DNA of 64,000 bases from Naegleria gruberi (GCA_000004985.1 GG738902.1); one strand, 5' to 3'; shown: positions 1-64,000, counted from the stretch's first letter. Program-made: numbers and translations. Notes: a model not told the origin generated them from the sequence alone.

Positions 1-512
1 CAAAAACAATTGCTTATCATTACAATGACCTAACAGTTACAAGCTATTTGCCACCTGGTAACAATACAAACGATCGCTCCATAATCAACATCATAAACTG
101 GAGGGGAAAGAAATTGGTTTTTGCTGGAGACCAACAATATTCAACAATACTGAAAGTATTGGCTGCGAAAGGGATTGAAAGTGTATATTTATTCCATATC
201 CCTCATCATGGTTCTAAGCATAATTGGGACTGTGACGTCTTAATACCAGCCAAAAATTATCTTGTAACTGGCTATCCAACAACCAAATACCCTGAGTTTA
301 ATAGTGACTCTCATTTCCAAGTTGTGAGAGGTGTTTGTGAGATGTTGTTGCTACATAAGAATTTTGGAGAAGTTATCATTTATTTTACTAACTGTCGTTT
401 AACTGTTGAGGATTGGTGTCGTATTCAAAATAACGAACGTTACGCTACGGTGAAAAGGTTTGTTCGTATTGTTACAACCAACAACCATCAACAAACTTTC
501 AGTATTTTGTAA
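1..512 (+). CDS. Metallo-beta-lactamase-fold protein, 3' partial gene fragment whose 5' exons lie outside the window. A probable acceptor (aacag|TT) sits near position 25.
   Basis: The translation ...KKLVFAGDQQYS...LFHIPHHGSKHNWDCDVL resembles the C-terminal ComEC/Rec2-type MBL motifs (FxGD ... HHGS). An upstream in-frame stop and an AG acceptor suggest an internal exon start. Confidence 0.35.
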   Translation, partial: KTIAYHYNDLTVTSYLPPGNNTNDRSIINIINWRGKKLVFAGDQQYSTILKVLAAKGIESVYLFHIPHHGSKHNWDCDVLIPAKNYLVTGYPTTKYPEFNSDSHFQVVRGVCEMLLLHKNFGEVIIYFTNCRLTVEDWCRIQNNERYATVKRFVRIVTTNNHQQTFSIL

Positions 513-847
513 TTTTAATAAATATATTATTAGTCTATCAATAAAAGCTTTCAATTCAAATTTAGACTTGATCACAAGAAATTCCAAAAATCTTGAATCA
601 ATATCTTATAAATCTGAAATTGTTCAACAATCCAAAATATCAGTTTGTTCTTATTTTTTCAAATTGATGTTCAGATTGGATAATTTTGTGGGAATCGAAA
701 ATAAATCTCAGAAGCAATCAATATGTTCTTGAAATGCTAGAGTGTATAATCATCCAATACTTATTTCACATCTTACTGCTCAATTCAAATACGATAGTAG
801 GAAATAATTCTTCAAAGTATGCCAATAAGGGGTTTCAAACTGGTTTT

Positions 848-2400
848 TTAATGTTGAGTTTGTTGGGTTGGGTTTTCAGTCAATTCTGCCAATTCGTTTT
901 CAAGTTGAATAACCTTGAGTTCGTGTTGGATAAACATGAATTGTTCATCAATGTTAGCAAATTTGTTTCTTTCTCTGCTATCCAAAACTTTGAGTAAATC
1001 CAATTTGATGAGCTTTGGTGTACTGTCACTCTTAGAGAGGTTTTGAATCTGAGTCATAATTCCATCCATGAGTGTTTTAGTATTTGGTGAGTCAATACTG
1101 CAGCCAACTTCTAAAAGGAATTCACAGACAAGTTTGAGATTCAGCTCTGTAGGATTTTGTAATAAAGAAGAAATAATTAAAAATGCAATCTTTCTATCTA
1201 AAACATGATAAGAAATCAACTTGGCAACAAGTTTCAATGTGTTGGATTTCTTCTGGAAAGATTTAAACTCTTCTTCTAATTCCTTTTCCTTATTTTGAAC
1301 AATGAATTCTTCCTTAAATAATTGCTGACACTTGGTAGCAATCTTCTTCTTGATTGAGACGATCACATCTTGGGGAAGTCTAGATACATTCTCTTCGAGT
1401 TGCTCATAGAATAAACTTGCAATAGTTCCAGCAATGCCTCGATACAAAACCTTCTCTATCAAGATGTCAACCCACAAACTTTGCATATTTTCAGAATTCT
1501 TAAAGAATGAAAAGTTCTTTAACAACTTGTGTCTAGTATTTTCATAAATTTCTGGAGTGAGTCTGGTGGAAGCATAAACCTTGTCATAACTGGATAAGAG
1601 TTTGGACAACAAGATTTTGATAAATTCAATAGTTTCCTGTTCTGTTCTGTGTTTCTTTCTCTCGTTTTGTGGCTTATGTTGCTTGATATTTCTTCTTTCG
1701 TACTTTCTATCATTTTGAAATGTTTCCGATTGACCTTGTTGTGCTGGTTGAGATACTGGTTTGGTTTCACTCTTTCCTGATACTGGTCGTTGATTAGTGT
1801 TAGCAGTACTGTTTGTTGGAGTTGCTGTAGTTGTTGTGGTAGTAACATGTTGTACAGGAGGAGCATTAGTGACACTTGTTGTTGAAGATCCTGTTGTTGG
1901 AGTGTTTTCAGTAATGGTTGTTGTGGCAGGTTTTGAAGATGTTGCACTAGGCTTAATTGGTGAAGTTGTAGATGGTGGTGATTGATGATGATCCTTAAGG
2001 TGAGCAACATTTCTCTTGTGGTGATGCTTGTTGCTTGGATGGCTCTTTTCTGTTAGTTATTTGAATATTAATGATCAATATTATTTAACAATTAATACAA
2101 AATAAATAATTTGATCAATTATTAAAACCTACCCGATGATGCATCTGTTGCTGATACAGCAGTAGTTGTTGTTGCCGATTGTGTTGGTGTTGTATTACTT
2201 GTTGATGGTGTTGTTGTTTTTGTGGCAGTGGTAGTACTACTTTGAGCCGATGATGATGGTTTAGACAGGGATTTCATGTATTGTTCATACTCCCTTTGAA
2301 ATTTATCTTCATCATAATCATCATCAATGACTCCATCATCATCCCAATCACCATCATCGTCTTTAACATCGACCCATTCCTCTTCGAACTTTTTACTCAT
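848..2400 (-). CDS. MIF4G-domain protein with an acidic N-terminus and an S/T/P-rich linker. Two exons: complement(join(848..2049,2133..2400)).
   Basis: The donor sits at tcg g|GTAGGT (2127-2132 on the minus strand) and the acceptor at aacAG (2050-2051). The reading frame runs unbroken from exon 1 through to the 848..1612 ORF. The C-terminal part has a MIF4G-like helical repeat signature. The track ORF 1519..2010 is a wrong-frame artefact. Confidence 0.5.
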
Positions 2401-6066: not shown

Positions 6067-8850
6067 TTACATGTTGATCTTTTGTCTGATTGGAATGACA
6101 TGGTTAGCAATAGTGAGACCAATAAAAATGGCCACACCAACCAAGAACACATCCAAGAAGAAATTCATTCCAGCCTGAGTATTATTGGTATAAATCAAAG
6201 AGGCCATACCTCTATATGACATACTACCTGGACTAAGCATTAACACAGCAACCCCAGCAACTAAAACAGGGGGACAGTGAGTAAAAATAGTAAAAATATT
6301 TGCCATTAAACCAACTGCAACAGCTGCAAGTACTGTAGAAATTTCAATTTTAAGGAATGAAAGAGAAAAATTCAACAGGTGAGCAGTTAAACTAGTTCCT
6401 AAAACAGCAACAATAACCTTTGGATCAGAAGGAACTTTTCTTGAAATCATTGTTGCTAAACTCAATGACAATACAACAATAATTCTCAACCAAATAGGAA
6501 TTGCTAATCTTTCTATATCCTTATCCTCACTTTCTGATAGTAGTGGAATTTGATTAACAATACCTGCTGTAAATATGAGGCCAAATCCTAATTTCAAAAT
6601 AATACTGAAAGCATTGGTAAGTCTTATTACTCCTGCTAGAGAGGCACCTATCGAAATTTCAGATAAGGCCACTGTAATGATTGACCCGGGTAAGAACTGA
6701 TACGATGTGCACAAACTAGTTAAATTGTAAGAATATTAATCGATAATGCTAAAACTTACGTAATCAATGAAACTGAAATATAATACTTGTCGAACAAGAC
6801 CCATTTCATGAAAATACCAACCAATCCACCAATCAAACTAGCAACAGCTGGAATAATCGTCGAGAATATTGGCATTCTCGAGAAGAAAAAGTTAACAACA
6901 CCAATAATTAATCCAATGAGAAGACAAGTAAACACCTCAGGTAAAGTTCCCTTCCATAATAATACAAACAATCCAGGTGTTAAAAAGTGGAAGAATAAAT
7001 TAATCATTGGATGGGAATAAATAACTGGTTCTTGAATGATCTTATTGATCTCAGCTTGAGCTTCATCAATTGTGAAATGTCCATGAGAAATATCACTGGC
7101 AACTTTATCAAGCTTTGCCAATTTATCCATATTTACAGTTTGTCCTTCTAATTTGATAAAATAAGTAAACATATTGTCATTCGATTCTTTTGGTCTATGT
7201 CCTAATCCAATCCAAATTCCATTAGTATTTACAGAAAAGTATGCATCTATACCGTAATACGACGAAATTAAAGTAAGGTGGTATTCCACTTTGTAAGAAC
7301 TCAATCCATATATTGAGAGAGCGTACGCCAGATCTTGAAACTTGTCAAAAAATTATCCAAACAGAAAACATACCAATAAGCAATGAGTGTACCTTCTTTC
7401 TATCGTCTGTCGATAAATCCTTATATAAAACTCTTGATTGATTCTTTTCTGATTGTCCTGTGAAAAAGTATTTGAATGAGCCAATAACTTTTTGTAATTT
7501 AGTCTTTGGTTTAGACACAGGCTCCTCCTCTATGGAGGGAATCCTCAGCATTGCTGTATCATTACCATCCTCTCCACTGCAACTAGATTCAGTTTCCACA
7601 GATACATCAGCTCCATCTATCAATTCCTCCTCATCACCTCCTGATTGCATTTGCTTTTCCTTTGCCTTGAGTAATTTTCTCTGATACCTAAGAGTGTTTC
7701 TGAGCTTTTTGAAATTGTAGGCACGCAAAGTTCTGGTTTGAGACGGAAGTAATACTCTTGGTGTTTCCAGAACAGATGCCAGCTTTTTTGTAGCTCTCTT
7801 AATGAAAGATGGTTTTTCTTCCAAGTTTTTCGATGAGAATATCATTGGCATTCGTTCTTTCAATGAGACACCTGTTTTCTTTTCAATTTGTCTTGCAAGA
7901 TTGTGAGCTGAATTGAACAGAGCACCTATTGCAGAATTTCCTCCATTTGTGAGTTCTTTTTCAGCCAACTTGCGCATATATTCATCCTCCAAAATACTTG
8001 GCTGCATAGTTGGATCCAAAACAAGAGATGAAATAGATTCCATTGAATCTGATGGCCTTAATAAATAACCAGGAATGGTTGGCAAAACAATTCCATCAAT
8101 AGATACTTCCTCCTTTCCAGAAAGTTGCAAAGTTGGTGGGATATGTAACAATCCTTCATCATCCACAGTTGCATCCACAGAAATTGTTTCATCATATGGT
8201 TGCAATTCATCCAATTCTACTTGTATAGGGGTTGAAGGTTTACTCTGATTTCGTTTAAGAATGATTGATCCATGTTGTTCACCAGTTTTCGATCCTCCAA
8301 AACTGAATTTAGCAGCCGATGATGTCACTGCTTCCTTTTGTAAATTATTGTAATTAGAATTTGGAATATCAACATTTAAATTTGGCTTGCTCCTAAATGA
8401 TGCAGGTGTAGTAGCCATAGTAAAATGTGATTGATTATTTGCATGATGATTTAAATTATGAATGGTTGGAGAACTACTCTCGGAAGAATCCTTTGAAAGA
8501 GCAACACCTTTAATATTCGATCGGGTTGATGTATTAATTGTTGTTTCATCATAGTGAGTTGCTGATGATTCTTCCACTGGTGTAGAGTATGGATTAACAA
8601 CCTCTTCATAAGTAGATGATGATGATTGTAGAGGATTCGTAAATACCAACAAATTAGCTTCGGAAGTTGCTGAAGACTGAGGATTTTGATGAGTCGTATT
8701 ATTTGCATGATTAGCATGCTGATGATGATTTGCTTCAAAAACCTGATGTAGCAGAGATGATCCTCCTTTGTTCTTGCTATTCATAGTAGCACTGCCCGTT
8801 GTTGGTGTTTTTGTGGGTTGAGCAGAAATAGAGTTTGAGTTTGCGCTCAT
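6067..8850 (-). CDS. PRM10/ThrE-family (DUF1212+DUF3815) putative threonine/serine exporter-like membrane protein with a long disordered N-terminus. Three exons: complement(join(6067..6715,6760..7333,7374..8850)).
   Basis: The middle and 3' exons encode the characteristic ThrE/PRM10 membrane core. Introns are att g|GTATGT...caAG (7334-7373, 40 nt) and att ac|GTAAGT...ctAG (6716-6759, 44 nt). Frames join to give ...SLLIDLAYALSIYGLSSYKVEY... and ...SVSLITLCTSYQF... Confidence 0.6.
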
Positions 8851-12268: not shown

Positions 12269-12360
12269 ATCGACTGATTAGTTGTGAATTAATGGTATTG
12301 TTGATTGGTAAACCCAATCAATTTTATTGTAAAAGTTCCACAACAATCAGAATAAAAAAA

Positions 12361-14818: not shown

Positions 14819-17409
14819 ATGAAGAGTTTCATATTCCTACTTTTCATCACAATTCACTATTGTTGCCAAATTATCAACGCCTCCAATCCGATAATCAATA
14901 CCAACGACAACGACAATATTAAATTTAGTAATATTAATAATAATAATAATAATAATATTAAATATATTAATATTAATAATCAGAATGAAATTTCCTTTCT
15001 ATTAATGCACACTGATGATATGCACTCACATTTCGAAGGCTCTGGTCCTGATTCCTCACTCAATGATCGGAGTGTGATGAATGGAGGAAATCAAGTGATC
15101 GGACATTATGCTCGATTATTGACATTGATAAGGAAATTGAAAAGCAAGTTTAAGAATAATTTATTATTGGGTAAGTAGTAGTTGAATGGGTTTGGATTTG
15201 ATGGTCAATTGGGGTTAGATGCTGGTGATTCACATATTGGAACATTGTTTCATACGATTTCAATTTCTGGAGTGTTGCCACAGGTTGCTCCTCCAGAATT
15301 GGACTTTTTTAGGATTGCTGAATATGATGCAATAGTATTAGGTTAGTTTCTAATAAGTGTGAATTTTTGTAATGGTTTGGAATGGCAGGTAATCATGAGT
15401 TTGATTTATTTCAGGATGGTTTATTGTCAATTATTGATAGAATGAATAATCAGAATTATTCCTTCTCACTTCCAATCATTTCGTCCAATTTAATTACTCA
15501 AGGTGAAAATAATATCTATCGTGAGCAGTGTGGAAAAATATGGGAGAAACATTATCAGAAACCAACTAATCTTAATAGTCCAGGAAATAATGGTGTGTTT
15601 TTAACACCCTATGCCACTAAAACATTCAAATCTGATAATGGACAAGATTTGACAGTAGGTATCATTGGAACTATGTCCCCAGCTAGTGCTATGGTTTCCA
15701 TTACAGGTCGTCAACCATGTTTCCATTATACTGGATTCAATGAATCCAAGAAGGAAGTGAATGCTGAGGAATATTCGAATCAAATTTATGAAATGGCTAT
15801 GGATTTGAAATTAGGAAGAAATGGAGCTCCAAAATGTCAAGTGATTGTAGTGTTATCTCATGAGGGAGAGCCAGAGGATAAACAAATTGCTGAAATGATT
15901 GTAAAGAAACACAAGTCAACTTACAAGGAGGGTATGCCAAAAGTTGCTGTAGATATTCACATTTCCTCTCATTCCCATAATATTTATTTGGAAAAGCTTC
16001 AAATTGATAGTGAACACGAGGTATATATTCATCAATCTGGTCCATATGCTTCAAATTTGGGAGTTCTCCAACTTTCTTACAACTTTGACACGCAACAAGT
16101 AAGATTACTCAATGAAAAGGTAAAAGTTCCTCTTTCAAACTTGGTTGGGGATGCTTCCAACAGAGACCTATTCGAGAAGGATCATCTTGGTCCATTGAGC
16201 CCATCAACCTCGCTATTTGAAACCAATGGAATTTGTTTTGATTGCATTTCAAACTCAATCTTGTTTCCTGTGAGAATACCAATTACTAATGAAATACCTA
16301 TGGATCAACCGTATAGAAAAAAGATTGAGAATTACAAACATCTCATTAACAAGTATATTTTGGGAGATTCTTTTGGATATAGATTTGACAGCTTTGTTGG
16401 ATCCATTGATGTTTCAAATGTCCATGACAAAACTGGTGTTGGCTCTATAGTTTCGAATTGTGTTATTCAACAATTTAGAGAGAAACAAGCAGAGGCTCTT
16501 GTCCTTTTGGAATTTTTAAAAAAGCAAGAACAATATAATGAGGAACAGTCAATTGAGGAAAATATTCACAAGTTGGACAAGTCATTGAACGTGCCAAAAT
16601 TCCATAGATTCTTTTCCAAGCTCAGAATTAAGGACGCTGAAAATATACTTGACCAAAGATATGATATTTACTTGATACCAACAGACGGTTTGAGAACTCA
16701 TATAATTTCTCTTAAGCAATGGAACGAAACCAGACTAAACTTTCAATTTTCTGATGCTTACACTTTCCTCTCCTTGGGAAGACTCAGAAGCAGTATTAGA
16801 GAGGATGTATTACCTGGTGAAACAATGGAGGTATACTATCTCCCTCAAAGAATAGCCAAACGGTTGTTTGTTTATACCAGATTTTTGAGTGATTTGCTTA
16901 ATTTACATATTATTGCTTTTTGTCACAGTACTAACTTTTCCTACAAAACTAGATGGTATGGAATTCCGTTCTTGGTAGAGGATCAACTTCACAAGAAGGA
17001 GGAGAAGGAATTGTCTTGGTTCTGGAAAATTATTCGAAAGGTAAAGAATGCCTTGGCAAGACATTACGACTTTTCATTGGATGGAAAATCTGAAGCTCAA
17101 TTCTTTGATGAATATTATTCTAAACCACATACCTTTCCTGAACCACTATATGGTATTACAATTCCAGGATGGTTAGTCAATTTCATGTCCAAGACTGCCA
17201 TGTATACAGGTGGTTTCTTAACTCTCGATATGAGAGACAAGTATGGTAGAATTATCAAAGTTCCCCAAACAAATGAAGGGAAAAGAAGTGATGGTCAATA
17301 CAATGCAAAAGATGAAACAAGATCACTACTTCAAACCTCTGTTAGTGCCACTCCTTTTATGGATTATCACATGTTTGCTGAATGTTTGGCCAAACAAAGA
17401 AATAATTAA
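14819..17409 (+). CDS. 5'-nucleotidase family (calcineurin-like metallophosphatase plus 5'-NT C-terminal domain), secreted. Three exons: join(14819..15170,15219..15341,15389..17409).
   Basis: Signal peptide, then MHTDDMHSHFEG, ...LLLG|DAGDSHIGT... and ...AIVLG|NHEFD. These match the 5'-NT metal-binding motifs (xHxND.H, DAGD, GNHEFD) only after removing two GTAAGT/GTTAGT introns of 48 and 47 nt. Confidence 0.75.
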
Positions 17410-17906
17410 GGTTGTTTATCGTGAGATTCGGTTTCAATCTCTGTAACTTGTTGTTTCTTATTAAAAAACCATCCACCTGAATTCCTTCTCAAACTCTTTT
17501 CCTCTAGAATCCAAGCTGAAATAGCTCTGGAATAGCGTGTAAAGAATTTCGCCACTGCAACATCTTGAAACTCAACCAAACCAAACTTACATTGGAATAA
17601 GTTGGAAGTACAAATGCTATCCCACAATTCTTGTGAAATAACCTCCCTATTCCAATACTCTACTAGTTCATGTCTCGAATGAGTAACTAGTAATTTTGCC
17701 ATGTGAAAAGCATGTTGTTGAGCTGCTCTTGGCATTGTAGCCAAAATGATTTGAAACATGCTATCAATTTTCTGTTTAAACATTCTGATATCACCACCAG
17801 AGTTTATCAATTGTTCCAACTACTTTAATGGCTTTGGATATTGTCTCCTTCTTCAATCCGAAACTCTTAAATATTGAATTACAAATGGCTTTGATAAATT
17901 CTTCAT
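17406..17906 (-). CDS. Small hypothetical protein (about 144 aa), two exons: complement(join(17406..17819,17883..17906))
   Basis: A putative first mini-exon ATGAAGAATTTATCAAAGCCATTT ends at a GTAATT donor, with a gtAG acceptor immediately before the TTG that the track used as its start. This is a tentative model. Confidence 0.3.
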
Positions 17907-30366: not shown

Positions 30367-30612
30367 ACTTGTATGGTTTCAAAGTTCACATCCTTTTTGT
30401 TTCCTTTAGTTTCTACCACTTTCTAATACTAAGAATCCTTAGATGGAAACAAAAAGGAAGTAATCATCCCTTTAAATATTGTGCACAGATCTCTATTCCT
30501 TACCTCACTCATACAAAAACAAAACTCACCAGTCATGATTGTGCACCTGTCAAGAATCAATATACTTCAACGAACACCAAAAAAAATTAGCTCAAAATCA
30601 TCTTCCGCTATA

Positions 30613-41382: not shown

Positions 41383-43192
41383 TTAATAGAGGGTAGTGTT
41401 TGGTCTTGGATTTGGAAGAACACCTTTCGATTCAAAATATGTGACCATTTGTTTAGGTATTTCGGCTAAGACTTCTGAGGCCAATTCTGTTAAATTAGAG
41501 CATTTTGAAAAGCTCACAAATTGAACAATGTCTCTGGTCATCTTCTTTCCATTGCTGTGGACGAGTGGTTCATCATCTGCGTCGAATTTTCTACAACTAG
41601 GGAATCTACTATCACCAACACCAACAATGATAATTGAAATTGGTTTGTCATTGGCCTCAACGATTGAATCTATTGTGCCTTGCATGTCAAATGCATCACC
41701 ATCAATAATTAACAATAAAATATTGTAGAATTGTTGGTGTTGAGTTATTGGAGGAGTTTTTTCTACAACGTGTTCAATTACACGATAAAAGTCATCACCA
41801 CGATATGCCTTTCCAGTTTTTGGATTGGTAGCAGAGCCCATATCTCCAAAACTTAATTTTGGAACTGCCTTAACGTAAGCATCCAGAATTTCTTCAGCTC
41901 CACACAATTCTTCCTTATCAGAAAGTGAAAGGTTAAACATTGGGTGCATTTTGGATTCCTTCTCTATAGTAGCACCGTATCCATAAGCTTCCAATAATTG
42001 GTGTAAAACGATTGTAGATTGTATAGTACTTACCGCCATACATCTTGTCAGAATCGTAAGGCTCCAAAATATGCAATACTTGCTCAAGAGCTTGTTGATA
42101 ATCATTCTTGTTTTTGGCGTTCAAATGGTGGAGGGAATAGGGATAAGTGTAAGTACCGTTTGATGCTGTAAAGTCAATTCCAACTGATACTGAAATATTA
42201 CATCCTCCAAACAGATAATCCAAAAATTCAGTTTGTCTGTTTTCCTTTCGTGCAATTGTTGATTCATATATTTCATGGATAGGATTGGGAATTGGAACTT
42301 GTACCACATCAATAGCACATAAAGAAAACTCAAATATTCCAGAATTTTTGTACTTCTTCTTCTTTAGTTGTATGGTTGGCTCAATCAAGTCAAATTGCTT
42401 TACCTTGTTATTCAATACTTGATCTAGAGTGAACCTGAACTCTCCTATCAAATCATCTTTAGAAAATTTGTCCTTATCAAAGCATTTTACAAATATTTCC
42501 TTTTGATAATCGTTATTGAACTCATCAAGATTGATTTTGAATGGTAACCAAGACGGGTTCAATGTCTTGCAGATAACTTCACTAGTATAGAGAGGGACTC
42601 TTCTTCCAGCCACATCCTTCTCAAAATAAAAATATGGATCTGATTTTCCAAGTAAATCCTTCTTGTCTAACCCAATTCCTCTACATTCGAATGAAATAAT
42701 TTTCATTTCCGAGTTAACAGTTAATGGTATCTCAGAATGTAAACCATTCAATTCATCCAAGCTCATATTTGCAAATCGGATCATCATGGCATTCTTTTCA
42801 GCCTCAACAACATCTACATTCGAATCAGATTGTCTCACCACCTTCTCAACATGAACAAAAACTTCACCTTTAACTTCTCCACTCTTCAAAACCAAATCTA
42901 ATTTTAATTTACCATCTCTAGCACAAACAGCTTGTGATAGAGTAAATTCTTTGGTCTTTCCAATAAGTCTATTACTATTTCCTGTATCTTCATCAAATAT
43001 TTCAATATATAATTTCTGCACACACTCAAAGTAATAATGAACACTAAACTTGGTTTTGAATACTGGGTTATGATTATTCTGAATAGTTTCAGTTGAACCG
43101 AGACATGAAAAATCAGTTGATATCAAAGTTTGTGAATTTTCCTGTGGGCCACTATAGTAAAGCTTTGCAAACGGATCACTCTTAGAGTACAT
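41383..43192 (-). CDS. Copine (two C2 domains plus a vWA-like domain). Two exons: complement(join(41383..41987,42034..43192)).
   Basis: Two N-terminal C2 domains and a copine-specific vWA-type A domain. The junction reads ...YDSDKMYG|AYGYGAT..., as in the human copine DKMFPAFGFGAK. The intron is GTAAGT...gaAG, 46 nt. Confidence 0.8.
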
Positions 43193-45930: not shown

Positions 45931-45979
45931 AAATTAGTTTTGTGATAAATAAATAATTGGTATTTCATGGTTGATTTAT

Positions 45980-52573: not shown

Positions 52574-53425
52574 TTACAAATTCAATTCTTTGAATGCTTT
52601 ATAACCAGAAGCTAATGCTTCATAGACTTCTTCAAGTTCAGATTCAGAATAATCCTCTGGAATGTAAGTTGTTCGATTGAATGGATACATGTAGTTTTCA
52701 TATCCCTCACTCTCAGCTCCTGATTCAGGGTCAGCACAAATCTTGTTGTAATATTCTTCTCCTTCAGAGATGATTTTACACACAGCATACATTCCACCAT
52801 CATCTAATCAAATTGTCATTTGACAAGCTCAATAATAAAAAAACAAACCTTCAAAATCATCCATATCATTATCTCTTCCAATACTAACCAAATGATCCAA
52901 AACCTTATAGAATTTAGTTTCAATCCTAGCAGCAATGTCAACCAATGAATTATCCACAATAATCTTTTCAACATTATCACATTTTCCTTCTGATTTTCCA
53001 ACAATCCACCAAAACAATCTCTCAAGTCTCTCATCATCATTCTTTGTTACAAATCTTCTCTTCAACAATTTCATCACCAAGCCATTAAACTCATTTAAAT
53101 GCTTTAATCTTCTAGAATACAATGGAAACTCCTCCATCATGGCCTTCTCATAACGTTTATCCATCACAGAAAGGTCATAAAAACTCTTCGAAACCAATTT
53201 AATGTTTTGCAATGCCTCAACATTTGCATAATCAAGAATTAAGGAGAGAATTTCCTGAGGACACTCAACATTATTCAATTTAATGGACGATAGAGTTGCT
53301 GATTCGGATCCGAATACAAGAACCTGATCAGTCATTGCCAACTCTATCATTTCATTCATGTTCATTTCGTCGCGTTTTGTTTTTTTTGCACCTTTAGTGG
53401 ATTCTTCTTTTAATTGTCGTTTCAT
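52574..53425 (-). CDS. F-box-like hypothetical protein. Two exons: complement(join(52574..52803,52849..53425)).
   Basis: CPQEILSLILDYANVEALQNIKLVSKSFYDL (F-box-like). The donor is gaa g|GTTTGT and the acceptor attAG, a 45-nt intron. The frame joins ...DMDDFEG|DDGGMYAVCKII.... Confidence 0.45.
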
Positions 53426-53667: not shown

Positions 53668-54497
53668 ATGAAAGGAAACTCAACCCAAACAATCACCCGA
53701 TCGAATGCAAATTCATCCTCATCACTGACACAACCAATATTCGATAATTCAAGTGATGGAATATTGACTTCAATCCGAAGAGGAAATATCAAACATATAG
53801 AGCATGCCATTGCGCATCGTGAACACATTCCCGATCACTATTTTAATATTCATGTGGCTGCAGAGTGTGGAGAGTTGAGTATTTTGGATTTAATGATTAG
53901 GAAAATACCATGCAAGGATATTAATGCAGTGAATGGAGAGGTAGGTTATTGAGATTGGATAGTTCTTCTCAGTTGAATCGATTGAATGTGTGTTTGTGCG
54001 TGTGGATGAATTGGATGATTAGGGAATGACTTGTTTAACGTTGGCTTGTTGGAGGAATAGAGCTAATGTGGTGAGATATTTGTGTTCGTTTGAAAATTTG
54101 GATTTGAATAAGAAAGTGACGAGGGCAGAGAATACAGCTCTTCATGTTGCTGCTTCGTATAATTATGTGGATGTTGTTTTGATATTGTTGAGATCTGGTG
54201 CTGAGAAAACAATTGAGAATTATGTAAATATTTTTAATTTTTTAAACTTAATTGCTAAATTTGGATAATAGTATGGAAGAAATGCTGAGGATGAAGCATT
54301 GAATAGAGGACTTTCTAATATTGCTGAGTTGATTGCAAGATTTGAAAAGAATTTGGTAAGTTTAGTTTAAATATTCGAAAGGAATTTAAAATATGTTTTA
54401 GGCAATTAAATTGAAATTAAAAAGACAAATTCTTGATCAAGAATCTTACTCAAATTATCGTATTTGGGATATTTCCATAAATATTTCTGAAGATTAA
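53668..54497 (+). CDS. Ankyrin-repeat protein. Four exons: join(53668..53940,54023..54223,54272..54355,54402..54497).
   Basis: The ANK units are NIHVAAECGELSILDLMI and TALHVAASYNYVDVVLILLRSGAE. There are three introns of 82, 48 and 46 nt with GTAGGT, GTAAAT and GTAAGT donors. All junctions are in phase 0. Confidence 0.6.
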
Positions 54498-54523: not shown

Positions 54524-56132
54524 TTACAATTTATTCTCAAAAACAAACATATTCTCACCTGTCTTATATTGAACAGATGGCAAAATGGTAGTTTGAACAA
54601 AGTGACTTCTACTTTCCCATAAATCAAGGAATACACGATATTTGAGAGTTTGTTCTAAATAATCAACTCCAGAACTGCCACCAGTTCCAACACGAGTTCC
54701 AATCATTCTCTCAACCATACGAACGTGACGAGTTCTCCACATCAATAGAGCTTCTTCCAAAGCAACTAATTTATCCAATAAATTGGCATAGTCCCACAAC
54801 ATGTGATGATGTCTGTAACTCATAATAAAGAGGAGTGCAGTACGACGTTTCTTAATACGTTCAATCTTTTCATTCACTGATCTCTTCATTGGTTTTTCTT
54901 CTTCTTCAGCAGCAGGAGTATTACTTTCAGAGCTAGCTCCAGTAACTGGACATTTTTCTTCAGTAGTGACATTTTCTTGTTGAGCAAAGAATGGACAACC
55001 TCTTGTGGATGGTTTCTTAAATTTGAATTGTTGTCTTCCCTTAATATGAGTTTCAGTATCCTCAATATGAATCCATTGCTTGGCAGGTTTCATTTCTCTT
55101 TCAATTTGTTCTTGAATAGTTTGCATCTCAGTTTCTGGATTAAACCATCGACATTTTTGGAACATTAAATGATCCTTCTTTCTTTCCAAAAAGATTTGAA
55201 TGAATTGATTTGCAGGAATCTTTGGATAAACAACTTCTTCTAACCATCGATAAACCAACTTTCTAACAGACATTTCAGATTGTCTTTGTTTCAATCTCTT
55301 CATACCAATCAAATCATGTTGTAAATCTTCTTCAAAACTATTTCTACTTCCCATATTTCTGTTACAATCTCTCAATCCAAGCATGACTTCCAATTCACGC
55401 ATTTGAATAGATTGGAAACCACTTGCTGGTCCAATTACTGAACGATATTCCAAAAAGTCAGCTGGATGCATGGTTTCTAAAATGTCAAAAGTTCCCAAAG
55501 TGTAACGAAGAATTTGATCAGCTCTATTTAATCTGTGAACAAGAATTTGAGTTTGTTCAACTGTCAAATCAACATCTTCATTGGAATGACTGGTTGCATA
55601 ATTAACTACCTTTCTCAAAACAGTTTGAACAGAATCCAATTCGAATAATATTTGTTTAAACCATAATTCGAAACTTTGATGAACAACAATGAATAAATGT
55701 TCATCTATTTTAAATTATTTACCACCAAACATCAACCATTATCATGACGATCACATTAATTTTTACATTTCCGATAATATTTAAAAATTCTATTCGAAAC
55801 CAAATAACAAACACTCTCAACTTACCATGATGATTCAATCCACCCTTACAATCACCATTTTGCAATTTCAACAACTCATCAGTCATAATATAATTATTAT
55901 AAGTAACAATAACTTTCTTTGCATTTTCCAATGGATGCAATCCATGCAATTCTTCATACGAAATTGAATGATCGGAGGAGGAGGATGAGGATTTTGAACG
56001 TTCTTGACCAATTTGTGAATTGTTGGATGAGAGAGGATGGGAAGGAGGTGGAGAAGAGGTGGTGGAAGAACCGTTGATTGGTTGTGTTTCTTCAAAGTGT
56101 GGTGGAGTGATTGGATGAGTGTGGGAATCCAT
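54524..56132 (-). CDS. TDO2: Tryptophan 2,3-dioxygenase. Two exons: complement(join(54524..55704,55826..56132)).
   Basis: Exon 2 encodes DEHLFIVVHQSFELWFKQILFELDSV...PASGFQSIQMRELE...GTGGSSGVDYLEQT...YRVFLDLW, the TDO signature. Exon 1 supplies the TYNNYIMTDELLKLQ region. The intron is GTAAGT...atAG, 121 nt. Confidence 0.8.
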
Positions 56133-56752: not shown

Positions 56753-58513
56753 ATGTCCTCAAACCTATTTTCACAACCATTCATGCCTCTGAGTGGTACA
56801 TCCTCTAATGTATCCCAATCAGTTGCATCATCTTCAGCACCAACTTTGAAAAAAAGACGAAACTCTGCAATTATGCAACATTTCGAATTGGAAAAGGAGA
56901 ATTTAGAAGAAAGTATAACTGGCAACAATAGTGGTCCTTCTTCAAAGTTTAGATCTTCATTCAATTTTACAAATCCCAATGAAAAAGCTAAACCAAATTT
57001 GGGTAAGAGAAGAGCTTCCCTTCCAGAAGATAAGATTTGCCTTCAGTTGGAAGATATCGTAGAAGCACCTGGACATTTCATGACTAGTGATCCGATATTC
57101 GATATTTTCAAGAAGATTTCTCAATACATGACAGATAAGGATTGTTTCGAATCGTCACTTTCGTTAGCTTGTTCAAGTGCTAGAGAAGCTGTTTTGCAAA
57201 CACATTTCCTTGGAAAACCTTCGATTATTAATAATTATTTGAAGAATTGGATTGTTTCGTAAGTAGTTTGTTAGAATTTAATATTCGAAAGTTTACAATA
57301 TAGAAAAACATATCAAGATCATTCAAGAAAGGAATTGCCAGAACTTGTTCTTAGATTTAACAATGCGTTGTTTGTTCATATGAATCCAATTCTATTAGTA
57401 TTGTGTGCACAACATGGGTAAGTAGTTTACAACAATTTTTTGGTCAACCACCAATTTATTGTAAACCAAAATTGATCAATCCTCAGCTGTGAAGCCATTC
57501 TATTCGATACAATCAACCATCCCTTCCTCACATTTTCCCTCTTCCGTCAATTGAGCACTCATGACATTGGAGAGTTGATGCAATTCACAGATATGAAATT
57601 TTACAGCATCTTCCATCCACTTGATTTATTCTCAATTCTGTTGTGTGAATCTGTGAATTGTAACTTTTACAATTTGGCCACAACTTTACATAATAATCAC
57701 TTGGTGAATGCTACTTGTCCACTTCATGCTAAGGAAAAGGTTTCCAAGCTTGAGATTATGCTGGAAATTGCATTAGAAAGAGATTTGCCGAAAGCATACT
57801 TCTTCCTGTTGGAGAAACTGGTCGAAATGAAGAGATTGTACATTGAAGAATTGACAGATACCTACAATCGATTGAGTCAATCTCTAGATTCGAATCCAAT
57901 TCGTGAATTAGTTGAAGGTGAAGATGCGTCAAATGTTGGCTGGGTTCCAATCTTTGAAGAAGAAGAACAGGAAATGGAATGGAGTGTCGAGAAGAAACTA
58001 GTCCAACGCTATTTCCACACCAAATTCAAACACTTTGTCTTGGATTGTCCACGAATTTTCTATGAAGGATTTTTGGGCAGTGGAAAAGTTGATGAGCACA
58101 TCTTGCAAGTTCTCAAGAGATTTGTTGGACATTGCTCGACCATTCCAGAGAGGGAGTTTATTGTAGAGAAGTTTGTTTTGGCACTTGTTAGAAATTTGGA
58201 TAAGGATCTTCCATATGTGATTGATTGTTTGTCTGAGCATGTGAATGAGTTTTCGTATGGTTTCTCCAGAGCTGTATTTGGTAATGAAGGTGTTGTAAAG
58301 AATGGCATTCTCAAATCAGTTCATATCTTTAAAACAATTGGTCATCTATTAGAAAGAGAGAAGAATGAGAAGGAAAACAATTCACAAGACTATATATTTA
58401 GTATTGATCAATTGAAAAGAATTTTCGAGGAGATGGAATTCAGACACAACTTTATGGCCCTTGACAACTTTAGAAAGAAACTTCTCTCCTATAGAGATAA
58501 GGATTTAGTTTAA
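56753..58513 (+). CDS. F-box-like hypothetical protein with KEN/RxxL-type N-terminal motifs. Three exons: join(56753..57258,57304..57417,57487..58513).
   Basis: PIFDIFKKISQYMTDKDCFESSLSLACSSAREAV is F-box-like. The donors are tc|GTAAGT and gg|GTAAGT and the acceptors are atAG and tcAG, giving introns of 45 and 69 nt. The frame runs on into track ORF 57551..58513. Confidence 0.5.
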
Positions 58514-58636: not shown

Positions 58637-60064
58637 TTATTTTGTAACAGCCTTCTTCTTAATGAAGAACTGTTTGAGCCAAAGTGAGAATAATTGTTCA
58701 TTATCCTTTCCATCCTTAAATTTCATAATCCATGGATGAGTCAGTAATTCTTCAGCGAAAGGTCTCTTATCCTTAGTTGGTTCACAACACTTCAATATAA
58801 AGTCCTTAAATTCTGCACTCAGTTTCTTTTCTGGTTTTAGTGTGGCATCATAATTATTCAATATTTGTAACAGTTCATTCTGGATATTTTCCAATTTATC
58901 TACAATATCAAAATGTGAGAGAGTTGTTAGTGTGCTTAGAGGGTGAACACCAGTCATTAATTCAATAGTTAATACACCCAAACTCCAAATATCAGAATTA
59001 TAATTGTAGGAATACCCTTGTAATCTTTCGGGTGAAAGGTAAATTTTGGTACCATTCACAGTACTAAACATTGTTTTTCCAATATCCTTGTTAGATTCCT
59101 TCTTGTGACCGCAAAGACCAAAATCTCCAATTTTAACTTCAGCTTTTTGTGTATTTTGATCATAGTCCACTAAAATATTCTCAGGTTTAATGTCTCTGTG
59201 AACAATATGTTTTTCCTTTTGCAAATATTGGAGACCCTTCAAAATTTTCTCTACAATTACAGACATCATTCTTTCAGTTGTTCCTTCTGTTACTTTGAAC
59301 ACATCTTTCAAACTTCCACAATTGCAATAATCAAGCAACATGTAAAAACACAAATCTTTGAAATAGCAATTGTACACTTTGAGTAGATTAGGATGATCAC
59401 TTTCGTAAATGGCCTTAAACTCTGCCCATATAAGTTTGTTTTGATCAGATTCATCATCACCAAATGGATTTTCTCCCTTCTTTTCTCTAATAGTTTTCAG
59501 AGCAAACTTTTGACCAGTTTGTTTATGCTTTGCGAGTACTACAGTTCCAAAACTACCACTTCCCAAAGTACCCAACTTGAAACATTCCAAATCATCATAT
59601 GGGATATTCATTTGTTTTTTAGCTTCGTTAGATGTATCATCATCATTAAAGATGAGACCATTAGGACCAATATAATATGATTGTGTTTCTCCGAATGAAG
59701 ATCCCTTTACTAACAAATTCCATCATGTAATTTCATCATTAATTCATAAAAATTCATTTAAATTCCATATTTGATTTGAATTAATTATTCATCTACCAAT
59801 AATTAAAAACTTACATGCTTTACTACCACTCACTGGCGTAGTCAAATCCAAATGAGTTTCGACTCTCAAAATCAAATTCGAGACAAAATTTGTATTTCTA
59901 AATCCAGTTGCTGGTTTATGAGCAGCAACAACTGGTGCTTTTTCCTCCTCATCATCACTATCACATCTGAAATTATCCAATCCGTAGGCAATCATTGGTT
60001 TACCCAACGGTTGTTGTTTTTGTTCTTGTTGATCGCCAAATGTTGAATCATCAAAGGCAGACAT
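58637..60064 (-). CDS. MAP kinase kinase (MEK)-like dual-specificity protein kinase. Two exons: complement(join(58637..59709,59815..60064)).
   Basis: LGSGSFGTVVLAKHK...FALKTI, HRDIKPENILV and DFGLCG are present. The activation segment and P+1 read GTKIYLSPERLQG (SPER is MAP2K-typical). The intron is GTAAGT...ttAG, about 105 nt. Confidence 0.7.
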
Positions 60065-60501: not shown

Positions 60502-61131
60502 ATGGGAATGAGTTATTCACAATCAGTTAGAGAATTAATAAAACAAGTCGAATCGGAGGATGCTATCATTGTTGATGATCATAGTAAGCTTCCACCTGCA
60601 CTTGTACAACATTCGGATGTTGAGTGGATGAAGATTCTCACCTCTAAACAATATGAAGTGTTGAGAAGGGCTGGAACAGAGCCTAGTTTCTGCTCTGGAT
60701 ACAAGGTTTTCAAAGATCAATTGAAGGAAAACAATCAGGAGGAGGGAGTTTTTCATTGTTCGGGATGTGATGCTCCTCTTTTCTCTGCTAAAACAAGTTT
60801 TGATTCTGGTAAGTGTTTTATTAACAATTCTGTGTAATTTATTTCATACATCAATGATTCAATTATTTGTCAATTTGAATTTATTGGAATGCATTCGTCC
60901 ATTATTTGGAATGAATTTTATAAAGGTTCTGGTTGGCCATCATTCTGGGCTCCTTTTAAGCCAAAAGCCATTGGATATGTAGTCGATAAAAAGTTTGGAA
61001 TGGAACGTGTTGAAGTTGTTTGTACAAATTGTCACTCTCATTTGGGTCACGTATTTGAGGATGGACCTCGTGATAAAACCAAATTGAGATATTGCATCAA
61101 TGCTGTTTGCCTTGCTTTGAAGAAATTGTAA
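60502..61131 (+). CDS. MSRB: Peptide methionine-(R)-S-oxide reductase MsrB (SelR domain). Two exons: join(60502..60808,60926..61131).
   Basis: ...GVFHCSGCDAPLFSAKTSFDSG|GSGWPSFWAPF...VCTNCHSHLGHVFEDGP...RYCINA. The two CxxC pairs and the GWPSF/HLGHVF motifs are restored only after removing the 117-nt GTAAGT...aaAG intron. Confidence 0.8.
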
Positions 61132-61971: not shown

Positions 61972-62467
61972 GTTAAATATATAATGTTTAATGATGAAAA
62001 GTAAGGCGGAATTATTTAAGGATTCTCATACGAGGGTTATTGTTGAAGTGTATGTACAGCAGCAATTATATAACTTGATATTTTGAGAGAGTATTGCTGA
62101 AACTTGTGAAGTTTGTTTTTTTTTGTGTTGTGAAAAAGCAAGGTCTGTTGGTGTTGATTTTATATTGTTCGATGAAATTTCGCGTAGTTGAAGTTTCCTT
62201 TCATCACTTCGCTTAAGGAGGGTCGCTTTTATACATTTTAGCACACTACCTGATAAGGTGGTGGTCTCTTCTTTTATGCAATCCATGCATGGAGTTGTGT
62301 GCAATAAGGTTCCCCTTCAATTTACAATTACCTTAATATGTATCTAAAGGACGTCTGTCCACTCACAAGATTCAATTTCTGTGTGGATAATAACTCGAAA
62401 TGGTATTAAGGATTCTTGAATATGCGGTTTACCTTAATAACAAGGTTAATGCCTGATTCTTAGAAAT

Positions 62468-64000
62468 TTAGAACTGTCGGTAGTGGGAACTGTTGGTGGT
62501 TTTGGGTTTTGCTAAACGGATGATAGCACATACTATGAGGGATATAAGTAAACAAAAGAGGAAAGCGAGCAACAAACTGCCAATCACCACTGGTGCTATT
62601 ATCCAATTAAGATTCTCCTCAATGCATTTTGATGGCGTTACTGGCTGCCCAACAGACACCTTATATCCTGCATTGCACTGCGAGATGATACAACTATCGA
62701 GCAGGAATCCGTCAATGCATTTCCTTACTGAATTACCGTTCTCAGTTGGACAAGACTTATCTGAATTACATTCATTACCACTGGTTGATCTTTGGCCAGT
62801 GAGAGTATACATTGTATTTGATGATAAATCTAGAATGGATCCAGTCATTGAGGAAAGGAGACAGTTTCCATCTCCTGATGAGGATCCTTCTTTAAGAACA
62901 ACGTTGAAGGTGGCTGTCTTGTCATCAATTTGCATAGATCCTTTCCACTTATCTCCAAAGTATGTACCATTCATATTGAATCTGGTTGAGTAAGCTTGCC
63001 AATTGTATGACTCTCTAATGAATACTGTTTCAACACTTGTCTTGTTATAGGAATCTTTGAGAGTGATGGACCAAGTACCAATGATATAACAATTGAGTCC
63101 AAGGTAATACTTGATAGCCTGATGTGAATCAATATTCTTCAAAATACCATTGTGTGAATATGGGAATGAGAGTCTTTGGGTTGCTTCGAAACCATCTGCT
63201 TCCACAGATTGATAAGTGGCCAATCCATCACCAGAAATGTAGTCATCCATGGCATAGAAAATATTACTAAAGTTGGAAATTACTACATTACTGTTGGCAT
63301 CAACAGAAATGCCTTCACCTTTGAGAATGATAGAAATTGGAGTTGGTTTATCCATGCCAATAATGTTGTAGAAATAGCTTGGCTGATCGAGTTTTGAAGA
63401 ATCATAGATTTGTTTGATAATATTGTTGGAAGCTTTCGATGTGTAAATATCATCTCTGAATGGAATAACTCGTGACTTGGCATTATTTTCACCATAGTAT
63501 ACAGTATTTTCTTTCAGGAAAGATTTCAAACCTTGAATCACTTGATCTTCAGTTACTGAAACTCCATTAATTACAATTCTTGGAGTGAGAGAACCTCCAA
63601 CATTCTTTGCCTTGTTGCTGAGTGCCATTCTTTCATAATGTGCAATAGAACCTAACGAAACATCTCTCACAGCCAAAGCATCCAACTTGATATTATTCAA
63701 ATTTCCTCCAAAAAGTGATGAAGCAATCCAATCTCTTCCTGTTCCTTGCCAGGGAGTGGCAAAACTAATGTGAACATTGACAGACTTGTAAAGTTCACGG
63801 TTAACAACATATGCTGTTTTTGAGACGTAGCCTCCCATACTGTGAGAAATGAGATTGACCTTGTTCGCCTTGGTTAGAGTCTTAATATTTGCAATATAAG
63901 TTGACAATTTGAATGCTGAGTTAATGATAGAATCTCTCCAATCATATGGAAATGCAAACAAAGTCACTCCTTCCTCATATCCAATTGACTTTAAATATTC
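62468..64000 (-). CDS. LCAT/PDAT-family lipase (lecithin:cholesterol acyltransferase-like) with a C-terminal Cys-rich EGF-like module and a TM anchor. 5' partial, continuing beyond the window end.
   Basis: ...FPYDWRDS... (the LCAT-family YDWR motif), the GHSMGG lipase nucleophile elbow (ISHSMGGY), and the C-terminal CxxGYxxC...C module followed by a hydrophobic helix and stop. The reading frame stays open to position 64000. Confidence 0.6.
   Translation of the reverse strand, partial: EYLKSIGYEEGVTLFAFPYDWRDSIINSAFKLSTYIANIKTLTKANKVNLISHSMGGYVSKTAYVVNRELYKSVNVHISFATPWQGTGRDWIASSLFGGNLNNIKLDALAVRDVSLGSIAHYERMALSNKAKNVGGSLTPRIVINGVSVTEDQVIQGLKSFLKENTVYYGENNAKSRVIPFRDDIYTSKASNNIIKQIYDSSKLDQPSYFYNIIGMDKPTPISIILKGEGISVDANSNVVISNFSNIFYAMDDYISGDGLATYQSVEADGFEATQRLSFPYSHNGILKNIDSHQAIKYYLGLNCYIIGTWSITLKDSYNKTSVETVFIRESYNWQAYSTRFNMNGTYFGDKWKGSMQIDDKTATFNVVLKEGSSSGDGNCLLSSMTGSILDLSSNTMYTLTGQRSTSGNECNSDKSCPTENGNSVRKCIDGFLLDSCIISQCNAGYKVSVGQPVTPSKCIEENLNWIIAPVVIGSLLLAFLFCLLISLIVCAIIRLAKPKTTNSSHYRQF

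What the first reader, a model, noticed from the sequence alone, without database searches (positions are those of the whole stretch)
1..64000. Eukaryotic locus with 40-50-nt introns: the supplied ORF track fragments at least 14 genes
Fourteen genes are affected: MIF4G, PRM10-like, 5'-NT, copine, TUL1-like, TDO, MsrB, MAP2K, ankyrin, three F-box genes, the 30613 gene and the 17406 gene. In each, adjacent same-strand ORFs in different frames are joined by short introns with GTAAGT, GTATGT or GTAGGT donors and AG acceptors. Conserved motifs are reconstituted only after splicing. Examples are the MsrB GWPSF...HLGHVF, the 5'-NT DAGD/GNHEFD, the RING-H2 and the copine DKMYG|AYGYG. Intron length clusters tightly at 44-50 nt, with a few at 82-146 nt. 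The ORF track also clearly treats TTG/GTG/CTG as M, so many track starts are not real initiation codons. Any annotation of this window with prokaryotic tools would be badly wrong.
Basis: seen in the sequence. Interest (0 to 1): 0.5.

Follow-up and report, generated by a model that had tools for sequence, protein, structure and literature searches.

The report
Naegleria gruberi genes with short introns

Summary
I rebuilt the splice models. For 8 of the 14 named genes (9 introns) the spliced protein is identical from start to stop to a GenBank protein of Naegleria gruberi strain NEG-M, on a 305,921-nt scaffold. These are MIF4G, copine, TDO, MsrB, MAP2K, two of the "F-box" genes and the 30613 gene.

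Five more genes (11 introns) have some support from conserved domains, a solved 5'-nucleotidase structure or homologues that run unbroken across the junctions. These are 5'-NT, TUL1-like, ankyrin, PRM10-like and the F-box gene at 40.8 kb. Two of these junctions (ank-c, PRM10-a) rest on splice signals or an indirect argument.

The "17406 gene" could not be confirmed.

The 20 introns are all GT..AG. The donor consensus is GTAAGT, the median length is 48 nt (10 lie in 44-50, range 40-121) and GC is 24% against 34% for the window. In a second strain that is 98% identical, the five introns covered take up more substitutions and far more indels than coding sequence, four of the six indels frame-breaking.

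The organism is a heterolobosean, not a dictyostelid. Nothing here is new in kind. By-products are two reference gene models that look unspliced or truncated, and a 2-nt frameshift at the 5' end of the copine gene.

The parts
848..2400 (-). MIF4G-domain gene, 2 exons (2400-2133, 2049-848)
   Evidence: The spliced protein (489 aa) is identical to XP_002671882.1, NAEGRDRAFT_73084. Pfam MIF4G, 41.6 bits.
2050..2132 (-). Intron, 83 nt, GTAGGT...CTAACAG
   Evidence: Present in the reference model. GC 0.16.
6067..8850 (-). PRM10-like (ThrE/DUF1212) gene, 3 exons (8850-7374, 7333-6760, 6715-6067)
   Evidence: Pfam ThrE is matched at profile positions 3-238 of 241 in one stretch, followed by ThrE_2. 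The reference annotates only ORF 7345-8850, as XP_002671884.1.
7334..7373 (-). Intron PRM10-a, 40 nt, GTATGT...TTCAAG
   Evidence: The ThrE domain begins at this junction, and the first in-frame ATG lies 53 codons further down. The donor scores 12.6. The intron is not in the reference model, so it is inferred.
6716..6759 (-). Intron PRM10-b, 44 nt, GTAAGT...AACTAG
   Evidence: The junction lies inside the single ThrE stretch.
14819..17409 (+). 5'-nucleotidase-like gene, 3 exons (14819-15170, 15219-15341, 15389-17409)
   Evidence: Pfam Metallophos spans both junctions. The alignment to human CD73 (9p1m, 4h1s) is contiguous through LLLDAGD and VLGNHEFD. No exact reference match was found.
15171..15218 (+). 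Intron NT5-a, 48 nt, GTAAGT...GGTTAG
15342..15388 (+). Intron NT5-b, 47 nt, GTTAGT...TGGCAG
17406..17819 (-).
   Evidence: No Pfam hit. The only strong donor in 17400-18230 is GTAAGT at 17590, inside the ORF. Six model variants are absent from the protein collection.
30535..32039 (+). The '30613 gene', 2 exons (30535-30932, 30980-32039)
   Evidence: The spliced protein (485 aa) is identical to XP_002671825.1, NAEGRDRAFT_59354. Its start is the ATG at 30535, not 30613.
30933..30979 (+). Intron, 47 nt, GTAAGT...AATTAG
   Evidence: Present in the reference model.
39830..41148 (-). F-box-like gene, 2 exons (41148-40809, 40758-39830)
   Evidence: Homologues P0260 and P0262 match query residues 15-236 and 16-233 in one stretch across junction 113/114. 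Fragmentary homologues end or begin at that residue. The reference XP_002671888.1 is the 3' ORF alone. F-box-like scores only 16.9 bits.
40759..40808 (-). Intron, 50 nt, GTATGT...AAATAG
   Evidence: Not in the reference model.
41383..43192 (-). Copine gene, 2 exons (43192-42034, 41987-41383)
   Evidence: The spliced protein (587 aa) is identical to XP_002671889.1. The Copine profile is matched at 1-215 of 218 in one stretch.
41988..42033 (-). Intron, 46 nt, GTAAGT...TGGAAG
   Evidence: Present in the reference model. The paralogue on L002 has a 42-nt intron at the same site, with the indels confined to the intron. Animal and Thecamonas copines have no insertion there.
43404..45932 (+). TUL1-like transmembrane RING-H2 E3 ligase gene, 4 exons (43404-45115, 45157-45323, 45379-45788, 45874-45932)
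   Evidence: Pfam DUF2921 (transmembrane E3 ligase) spans introns a and b. The RING-H2 finger spans intron c. No exact reference match.
45116..45156 (+). Intron TUL1-a, 41 nt, GTACGT...AGAAAG
   Evidence: DUF2921 scores 70.8 bits with the 41-nt intron and 55.9 bits with the 77-nt alternative, 45116-45192.
45324..45378 (+). Intron TUL1-b, 55 nt, GTAAGT...TTGTAG
45789..45873 (+). Intron TUL1-c, 85 nt, GTTAGT...ATTAAAG
   Evidence: It joins HTVCLEK to WKEYKLECPLCKK. zf-RING_2 is matched at profile positions 14-44 of 44 across the junction.
52574..53425 (-). F-box gene, 2 exons (53425-52849, 52803-52574)
   Evidence: The spliced protein (268 aa) is identical to XP_002671893.1.
52804..52848 (-). 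Intron, 45 nt, GTTTGT...GATTAG
   Evidence: Present in the reference model.
53668..54497 (+). Ankyrin-repeat gene, 4 exons (53668-53940, 54023-54223, 54272-54355, 54402-54497)
   Evidence: Ank_2 spans junction a. Support at junction b is weak: 27.0 bits spliced against 25.6 unspliced. Junction c rests on splice signals only. No exact reference match.
53941..54022 (+). Intron ank-a, 82 nt, GTAGGT...GATTAG
54224..54271 (+). Intron ank-b, 48 nt, GTAAAT...TAATAG
   Evidence: Weak support.
54356..54401 (+). Intron ank-c, 46 nt, GTAAGT...GTTTTAG
   Evidence: Signals only; the donor scores 14.7.
54524..56132 (-). Tryptophan 2,3-dioxygenase gene, 2 exons (56132-55826, 55704-54524)
   Evidence: The spliced protein (495 aa) matches P0121, NAEGRDRAFT_81411, at 100% identity over 100% of its length. 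The Pfam domain crosses the junction.
55705..55825 (-). Intron, 121 nt, GTAAGT...AAATAG
   Evidence: Present in the reference model.
56753..58513 (+).
   Evidence: The spliced protein (548 aa) is identical to XP_002671829.1. No F-box was detected by Pfam.
57259..57303 (+). Intron, 45 nt, GTAAGT...ATATAG
   Evidence: Present in the reference model.
57418..57486 (+). Intron, 69 nt, GTAAGT...CCTCAG
   Evidence: Present in the reference model. It differs from the second strain by +1, -4 and -1 nt indels.
58637..60064 (-). MAP2K-like kinase gene, 2 exons (60064-59815, 59709-58637)
   Evidence: The spliced protein (440 aa) is identical to XP_002671895.1.
59710..59814 (-). Intron, 105 nt, GTAAGT...TGTTAG
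   Evidence: Present in the reference model.
60508..61131 (+). MsrB (SelR) gene, 2 exons (60508-60808, 60926-61131)
   Evidence: The spliced protein starting at the third codon of the ORF (168 aa) is identical to XP_002671830.1.
60809..60925 (+). Intron, 117 nt, GTAAGT...ATAAAG
   Evidence: Present in the reference model. SelR is continuous across the junction.

Best explanation
The window is a stretch of a 305,921-nt nuclear scaffold of Naegleria gruberi strain NEG-M, the published reference genome. It is gene-dense and holds about 40 protein-coding genes. At least 13 of them are interrupted by one to three short U2-type GT-AG spliceosomal introns. The donor consensus is GTAAGT, the introns are AT-rich and their median length is 48 nt.

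The spliceosome removes these introns from the pre-mRNA. Most of them shift the frame or carry a stop codon, so a stop-to-stop ORF list shows each gene as two to four fragments in different frames. Its first ATG/GTG/TTG rule also gives false starts.

Shown here: the identity of the locus, restoration of the reading frame, domain continuity, and non-coding-type evolution of five of the introns. Inferred: actual removal of the introns from RNA. That rests on the published gene models and on general knowledge of splicing.
For: - Exact start-to-stop identity of my spliced models with GenBank N. gruberi proteins for 8 genes and 9 introns.
- Two unspliced ORFs of the window are also exact GenBank entries on the same scaffold.
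- Pfam domains run across junctions in a single stretch for Copine, TDO, SelR, ThrE, Ank_2, Metallophos, DUF2921 and RING-H2.
- The 5'-NT model aligns to the solved CD73 structure across both of its junctions.
- Homologues bridge the F-box junction at 40.8 kb.
- All 20 introns are GT..AG, with G at +5 in 19 of 20 and T at +6 in 20 of 20. Intron GC is 0.244 against 0.338 for the window.
- Donor hexamers are enriched at ORF ends, p = 2e-5 and 1e-6.
- A paralogous copine has a 42-nt intron at the same site as the 46-nt one here.
- Against a second strain at 98.3-98.7% identity, five introns show 2.7% substitutions against 0.8% in coding sequence (p = 0.001). They carry 6 indels in 371 nt against 8 in 9,717 nt (p = 6e-6). 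Four of the six intron indels are not multiples of three.
- Published figures for N. gruberi fit: 33% GC and 1.7 exons per gene (PMC8296547).
Against: - No transcript data could be examined here.
- The 17406 gene could not be modelled.
- For PRM10-a, the intron at 40.8 kb, the 5'-NT, TUL1-like and ankyrin genes, my models are not among the GenBank proteins. In two cases the reference is unspliced.
- Ank-c rests on splice signals alone and ank-b on a 1.4-bit difference.
- The published mean intron length for N. gruberi is 203 bp. That is much longer than the mean of 63 nt here, although a mean is sensitive to a few long introns and 20 is a small sample.
Confidence: 0.97

Rival explanations
1. 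The locus comes from a dictyostelid social amoeba, as the reader's suggestion of a gene finder trained on Dictyostelia implies.
For: Composition is AT-rich, with poly-N, poly-S and poly-Q tracts in the proteins. Copines and many F-box/LRR proteins are present. Both features also occur in Dictyostelia (my own knowledge).
Against: Ten proteins encoded in the window are identical from start to stop to N. gruberi NEG-M GenBank entries. The next-best TDO hits are N. lovaniensis (67%), Willaertia magna (58%) and Acrasis kona (41%), all heteroloboseans.
Confidence: 0.005
2. The ORF breaks are not introns. They are frameshifts, pseudogenes or assembly errors in a prokaryotic or giant-virus sequence, or programmed frameshift sites.
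For: One real frame break of this kind does exist: a 2-nt deletion at the copine 5' end relative to a second strain and a paralogue.
Against: - Every one of the 20 breaks is bounded by GT..AG with a shared extended donor.
- The removed segments are 40-121 nt long and AT-rich.
- The second strain keeps them while changing their length by 1 or 4 nt. That would destroy a coding or frameshifting reading.
- Removal yields proteins identical to published eukaryotic gene models.
Confidence: 0.01
3. For the junctions absent from the reference annotation (PRM10-a at 7334-7373, the F-box gene at 40759-40808, and whatever lies upstream of ORF 17406-17819), the adjacent ORFs are separate, closely spaced genes and not exons of one gene.
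For: - GenBank annotates ORF 7345-8850 and ORF 39830-40747 as stand-alone genes.
- ORF 39830-40747 has its own ATG four codons after the proposed acceptor.
- Tandem genes only 44 and 63 nt apart, with no linking intron, occur elsewhere in the window.
- No good donor exists upstream of ORF 17406-17819.
Against: - At 40.8 kb, full-length homologues carry both halves in one alignment stretch across the junction. Fragmentary homologues stop or start exactly there.
- For PRM10-a, the ThrE domain starts at the junction, and the first ATG would delete its first ~50 residues.
- Both donors are GTATGT and score 12.6, among the higher scores in the set, which range from 6.3 to 14.7.
Confidence: 0.15

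Closest known systems
Naegleria gruberi NEG-M reference genome (Fritz-Laylin et al. 2010, Cell 140:631, cited; GenBank proteins EFC39081-EFC39151 / XP_002671825-XP_002671895 on a 305,921-nt scaffold)
   Same: It is the same sequence. Ten proteins encoded in the window are identical from start to stop, and nine of my introns are in the reference models.
   Different: My models differ from the reference in several genes. The PRM10-like gene is annotated as its first ORF only. The F-box gene at 40.8 kb lacks its 5' exon. My 5'-NT, TUL1-like and ankyrin models have no exact counterpart. MsrB starts two codons later in the reference.
Intron-poor, gene-dense genomes of other Naegleria species (N. 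fowleri, N. lovaniensis)
   Same: GC of 35-36%, about 2 exons per gene and a high coding fraction (PMC8296547). The N. lovaniensis TDO orthologue is 67% identical.
   Different: These are different species. Published mean intron lengths are 126-144 bp (N. fowleri) and 203 bp (N. gruberi), against a median of 48 nt for the 20 introns here. Their orthologous loci were not examined.
Short-intron unicellular eukaryotes such as Schizosaccharomyces pombe (own knowledge, not tested)
   Same: A GTAAGT-type donor, introns mostly 40-60 nt, and one or a few introns per gene.
   Different: The lineage is unrelated. No conserved CTAAC-type branch site is evident in the introns here. This is a resemblance only.

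Membership tests
Naegleria gruberi NEG-M nuclear genome | Encoded proteins identical to the deposited proteins of that assembly | tested here: met
   Ten proteins of 168-587 aa are identical from start to stop, all on a contig of 305,921 nt.
Naegleria gruberi NEG-M nuclear genome | Nucleotide identity of the window to the assembly | not testable with these tools
   The assembly's DNA is in none of the searchable collections, and look-ups of its proteins in the gene-position index failed. A different strain in ENA is 98.3-98.7% identical.
U2-type (GT-AG) spliceosomal introns | GT at the 5' end and AG at the 3' end, with an extended donor consensus | tested here: met
   20 of 20 are GT..AG. Position +3 is A in 17 of 20, +5 is G in 19 of 20 and +6 is T in 20 of 20.
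U2-type (GT-AG) spliceosomal introns | Removal restores one open reading frame and a contiguous conserved protein | tested here: met
   All 13 gene models are open after splicing. Domains and homologues run across 15 or more junctions.
U2-type (GT-AG) spliceosomal introns | Evolves as non-coding sequence (faster, with indels that ignore the frame) | tested here: met
   In the five introns covered by a second strain, substitutions are 3.4-fold and indels about 20-fold more frequent than in coding sequence. Four of the six indels are not multiples of 3. A paralogue has 42 nt where the window has 46 nt.
U2-type (GT-AG) spliceosomal introns | Branch-point motif upstream of the acceptor | tested here: inconclusive
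   A few introns have CTAAC or CTAAT (for example 2050-2132 and 40759-40808), but no common motif is evident by eye. No formal motif search was done.
U2-type (GT-AG) spliceosomal introns | Absence from mature mRNA | not testable with these tools
   No transcript data are available here. N. gruberi RNA-seq exists under PRJEB23822.
   The best hits are N. gruberi (100%), followed by N. lovaniensis, Willaertia and Acrasis. No dictyostelid appears among the named hits in the listed tops of the two searches.
   The 53-kb gene scores 20.3 bits against a cut-off of 20.5. The 40.8-kb gene scores 16.9 bits against 24.3. The 56753 gene has no hit. The single-exon gene 32104-33834 has a clear F-box plus LRRs.

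The most novel reading that the evidence does not exclude
The only new content is a set of corrections to the 2010 reference annotation or assembly of N. gruberi:
(a) The PRM10-like ThrE transporter is one 899-aa gene, not a 501-aa orphan ORF plus an unannotated remainder.
(b) NAEGRDRAFT_73103 has a missing 5' exon that encodes an F-box-like motif.
(c) The 5'-NT, TUL1-like and ankyrin genes have the multi-exon structures given here.
(d) The copine NAEGRDRAFT_73104 carries a 2-nt frameshift, either an assembly error or a strain mutation, that removes the start of its first C2 domain.
Probability: 0.6. Interest if true: 0.1.

Novelty: already known. Interest (0 to 1): 0.07.

Why it matters
The main use is as a sanity check for the scan. 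The window is eukaryotic, so any first-stage finding that relies on the bacterial ORF track (starts, gene boundaries, "overlapping" or "frameshifted" ORFs) must be re-read with these splice models. A public metagenome assembly has already mis-annotated the same genes in exactly this way. For Naegleria biology it offers a few corrections to gene models. It reveals no new mechanism and no new kind of element.

Tried and rejected
- **Gene-position index.** Looking up single-exon ORFs (1016 aa, 899 aa) and N. gruberi proteins P0003, P0004 and P0121 found nothing. That assembly is not indexed.
- **Early misreading of the copine search.** I first took it to show a Naegleria species only 64-81% identical to N. 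gruberi. Those hits are paralogues. The true protein was hidden inside a cluster represented by a metagenome ORF.
- **TUL1-like first intron.** The 77-nt alternative (45116-45192) and a 188-nt GTATGT alternative were rejected in favour of 41 nt, on the DUF2921 score.
- **TDO.** A 145-nt alternative with a GTAAGG donor was rejected, because the 121-nt intron reproduces the reference protein.
- **17406 gene.** Six models were tried: a single exon from MFKQ, and upstream mini-exons MKNLSKPF and MGECC... with introns of 45-111 nt. None is in the protein collection, and all need donors that score below 2.
- **Closely spaced tandem ORFs.** No canonical intron links 24540/24496, 26778/27647 or 37467/37530, so I treat them as separate genes.
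- **Other checks.** Candidate intron 458-533 gives a low-complexity continuation and was judged unlikely. The paper search for PRJEB11402 found nothing. Rfam and tRNA scans of the window were empty.

Full report
**What the window looks like.** GC is 32-37% throughout. Long ORFs fill both strands, and many begin at TTG or GTG in the mechanical ORF list. Several pairs of neighbouring same-strand ORFs sit in different frames only tens of bases apart.

**Rebuilding the splice models.** I also read the junctions base by base. Thirteen genes gave clean models with 20 introns in total. Every intron is GT..AG. The donors are:
- GTAAGT, 11 times
- GTATGT, 2
- GTAGGT, 2
- GTTAGT, 2
- GTTTGT, GTACGT and GTAAAT, once each

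Position +5 is G in 19 of 20 and +6 is T in 20 of 20. The lengths are 40, 41, 44, 45, 45, 46, 46, 47, 47, 48, 48, 50, 55, 69, 82, 83, 85, 105, 117 and 121 nt. Intron GC is 0.244 against 0.338 for the window.

**Is it more than chance?** I used a test that does not depend on my choice of junctions. Of all 62 open frames of at least 100 codons, 14 end within 40 nt after a GT[AT]NGT hexamer, against 3.8 expected from the density of that hexamer inside the same frames (p = 2e-5). Eight end after GTA[ATG]GT, against 0.8 expected (p = 1e-6). GTAAGT is under-represented in the window as a whole, with 29 copies against about 44 expected. Eleven of the 29 sit at the proposed 5' splice sites.

**Protein-level tests.** After splicing, Pfam domains are matched in one unbroken stretch across the junctions:
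- Copine, profile positions 1-215 of 218
- Trp_dioxygenase
- SelR, 1-115 of 116
- ThrE, 3-238 of 241
- Ank_2
- Metallophos
- DUF2921, the transmembrane E3 ligase domain
- RING-H2

The DUF2921 score chose between two candidates for the first TUL1-like intron: 70.8 bits for 41 nt against 55.9 bits for 77 nt. The spliced 5'-nucleotidase aligns to solved human CD73 straight through NNLLLDAGD and AIVLGNHEFD, the two junctions. All four motif examples in the finding are therefore real.

**What the organism is.** The spliced TDO model hit NAEGRDRAFT_81411 of Naegleria gruberi at 100% identity over 100% of its 495 residues. N. lovaniensis (67%), Willaertia magna (58%) and Acrasis kona (41%) followed. 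Exact-sequence look-ups then found my spliced models, from first to last residue, among GenBank proteins of N. gruberi NEG-M, all on a 305,921-nt contig:

| Gene | GenBank protein | Note |
|---|---|---|
| MIF4G | XP_002671882.1 | |
| Copine | XP_002671889.1 | |
| MAP2K | XP_002671895.1 | |
| F-box gene at 53 kb | XP_002671893.1 | |
| 56753 gene | XP_002671829.1 | two introns |
| MsrB | XP_002671830.1 | starts two codons later than my model |
| 30613 gene | XP_002671825.1 | starts at the ATG at 30535 |

The window is therefore part of the published reference genome of a heterolobosean amoeba. It is not a dictyostelid. Published statistics fit: 33% GC, 1.7 exons per gene and 57.8% coding (PMC8296547).

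**Junctions not in the reference.** Two reference entries are simply unspliced ORFs of the window. XP_002671884.1 is ORF 7345-8850, the N-terminal half of the PRM10-like gene. XP_002671888.1 is ORF 39830-40747, the 3' part of the F-box gene at 40.8 kb.

For the 40.8-kb gene, a full HMMER scan of 1.84 billion representatives found two long homologues (P0260 and P0262). Their best stretch covers query residues 15-236 and 16-233, straight across junction 113/114. It also found shorter ORF fragments that end or begin exactly at that residue. The spliced model is therefore the better one.

For PRM10-a the argument is indirect. The ThrE domain starts at the junction, and the next in-frame ATG lies 53 codons inside it.

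My 5'-NT, TUL1-like and ankyrin models have no exact counterpart among the deposited proteins. They rest on domain and structure alignments. Ank-b is weak and ank-c is supported by signals only.

**The gene that failed.** No convincing exon could be found upstream of ORF 17406-17819. The only strong donor in that kilobase lies inside the ORF, and six candidate models are absent from the protein collection. This part of the finding is unverified.

**Independent evolutionary evidence.** An ENA assembly (ERZ929261, run ERR1078381) holds contigs 98.3-98.7% identical to the window. About 11.9 kb of these aligned to the window. The table compares the classes.

| Class | Substitutions | Indels |
|---|---|---|
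| Coding sequence | 74 in 9,717 nt (0.8%) | 8, of which 6 are multiples of three |
| Five introns covered | 10 in 371 nt (2.7%) | 6, of which 4 are not multiples of three |
| Fisher p, introns against coding | 0.001 | 6e-6 |

A paralogous copine locus has a 42-nt intron at the same site as the 46-nt intron here. Its splice sites are conserved and all its indels lie inside the intron. Read through in frame, that intron yields the 14-residue insertion GKYLTFNTFTNYSK seen in protein P0001, which is encoded on that locus, and in the N. gruberi model P0003. Animal and Thecamonas copines lack it.

The gene calls on those ENA contigs split the same genes:
- MsrB into 109 + 79 aa
- MAP2K into 91 + 359 aa
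- copine into 439 + 188 aa
- the 56753 gene into 170 + 290 aa

**Verdict.** The taxon hint, the tightness of the length cluster, the donor list and some family labels need correction. The locus is ordinary and already annotated. The by-products are a handful of probable corrections to reference gene models and a 2-nt frameshift at the copine 5' end.

Noticed in passing
window 43180-43195 (- strand), 5' end of the copine gene: The window lacks 2 nt (CT in a CTCTCT run) relative to a 98%-identical second strain (L003) and to the paralogue L002. The frame shifts, so the reference protein starts at MYSKSDPF and loses about 22 residues (MNYRESVDIYLSCSNLVRMDVL) of the first C2 domain. This is either an assembly error or a strain-specific mutation.
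   Followed up: partly
window 6067-8850 (-) and 39830-41148 (-): Two GenBank reference models are the bare ORFs. XP_002671884.1 is 7345-8850 only, without the ThrE domain. XP_002671888.1 is 39830-40747 only, without the exon that encodes an F-box-like motif. Both look like annotation errors.
   Followed up: partly
loci L001, L003, L004, L006 (ENA ERZ929261 / ERR1078381, PRJEB11402): A public assembly labelled as a metagenome contains contigs of a second N. gruberi-like strain, 98.3-98.7% identical to the window. The same sample also holds the copine paralogue (L002, 77.6% identical). Its prokaryote-style gene calls split the intron-containing genes.
   Followed up: partly
window 17406-17409: The convergent 5'-NT gene (+, stop 17407-17409) and ORF 17406-17819 (-, stop 17406-17408) overlap at their stop codons, so their 3' UTRs would have to overlap.
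   Followed up: no
window 20560-21250 (+): A GTAAGT donor at 20996 ends a 69-codon open frame (…DGQHVWVVLKG). Acceptors follow at 21044 (49 nt) or 21066 (71 nt). This may be an unlisted small multi-exon gene. It has no in-frame ATG and no Pfam hit.
   Followed up: partly
window 24496-24540 (-), 37467-37530 (+): Tandem same-strand genes lie only 44 and 63 nt apart, with no canonical intron to join them. Intergenic spacers here are very short.
   Followed up: partly
window 9218-12268 (+) and 12292-14607 (+): Two large single-exon genes lie 23 nt apart. One is a 1016-aa penicillin amidase family protein with an N-terminal transmembrane extension. The other is a DUF2828/DUF7788 protein.
   Followed up: no
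whole window: The mean length of the 20 introns is 63 nt (median 48), against a published genome-wide mean of 203 bp for N. gruberi. The published mean may be inflated by a few long or mis-called introns, or this sample may be unrepresentative.
   Followed up: no
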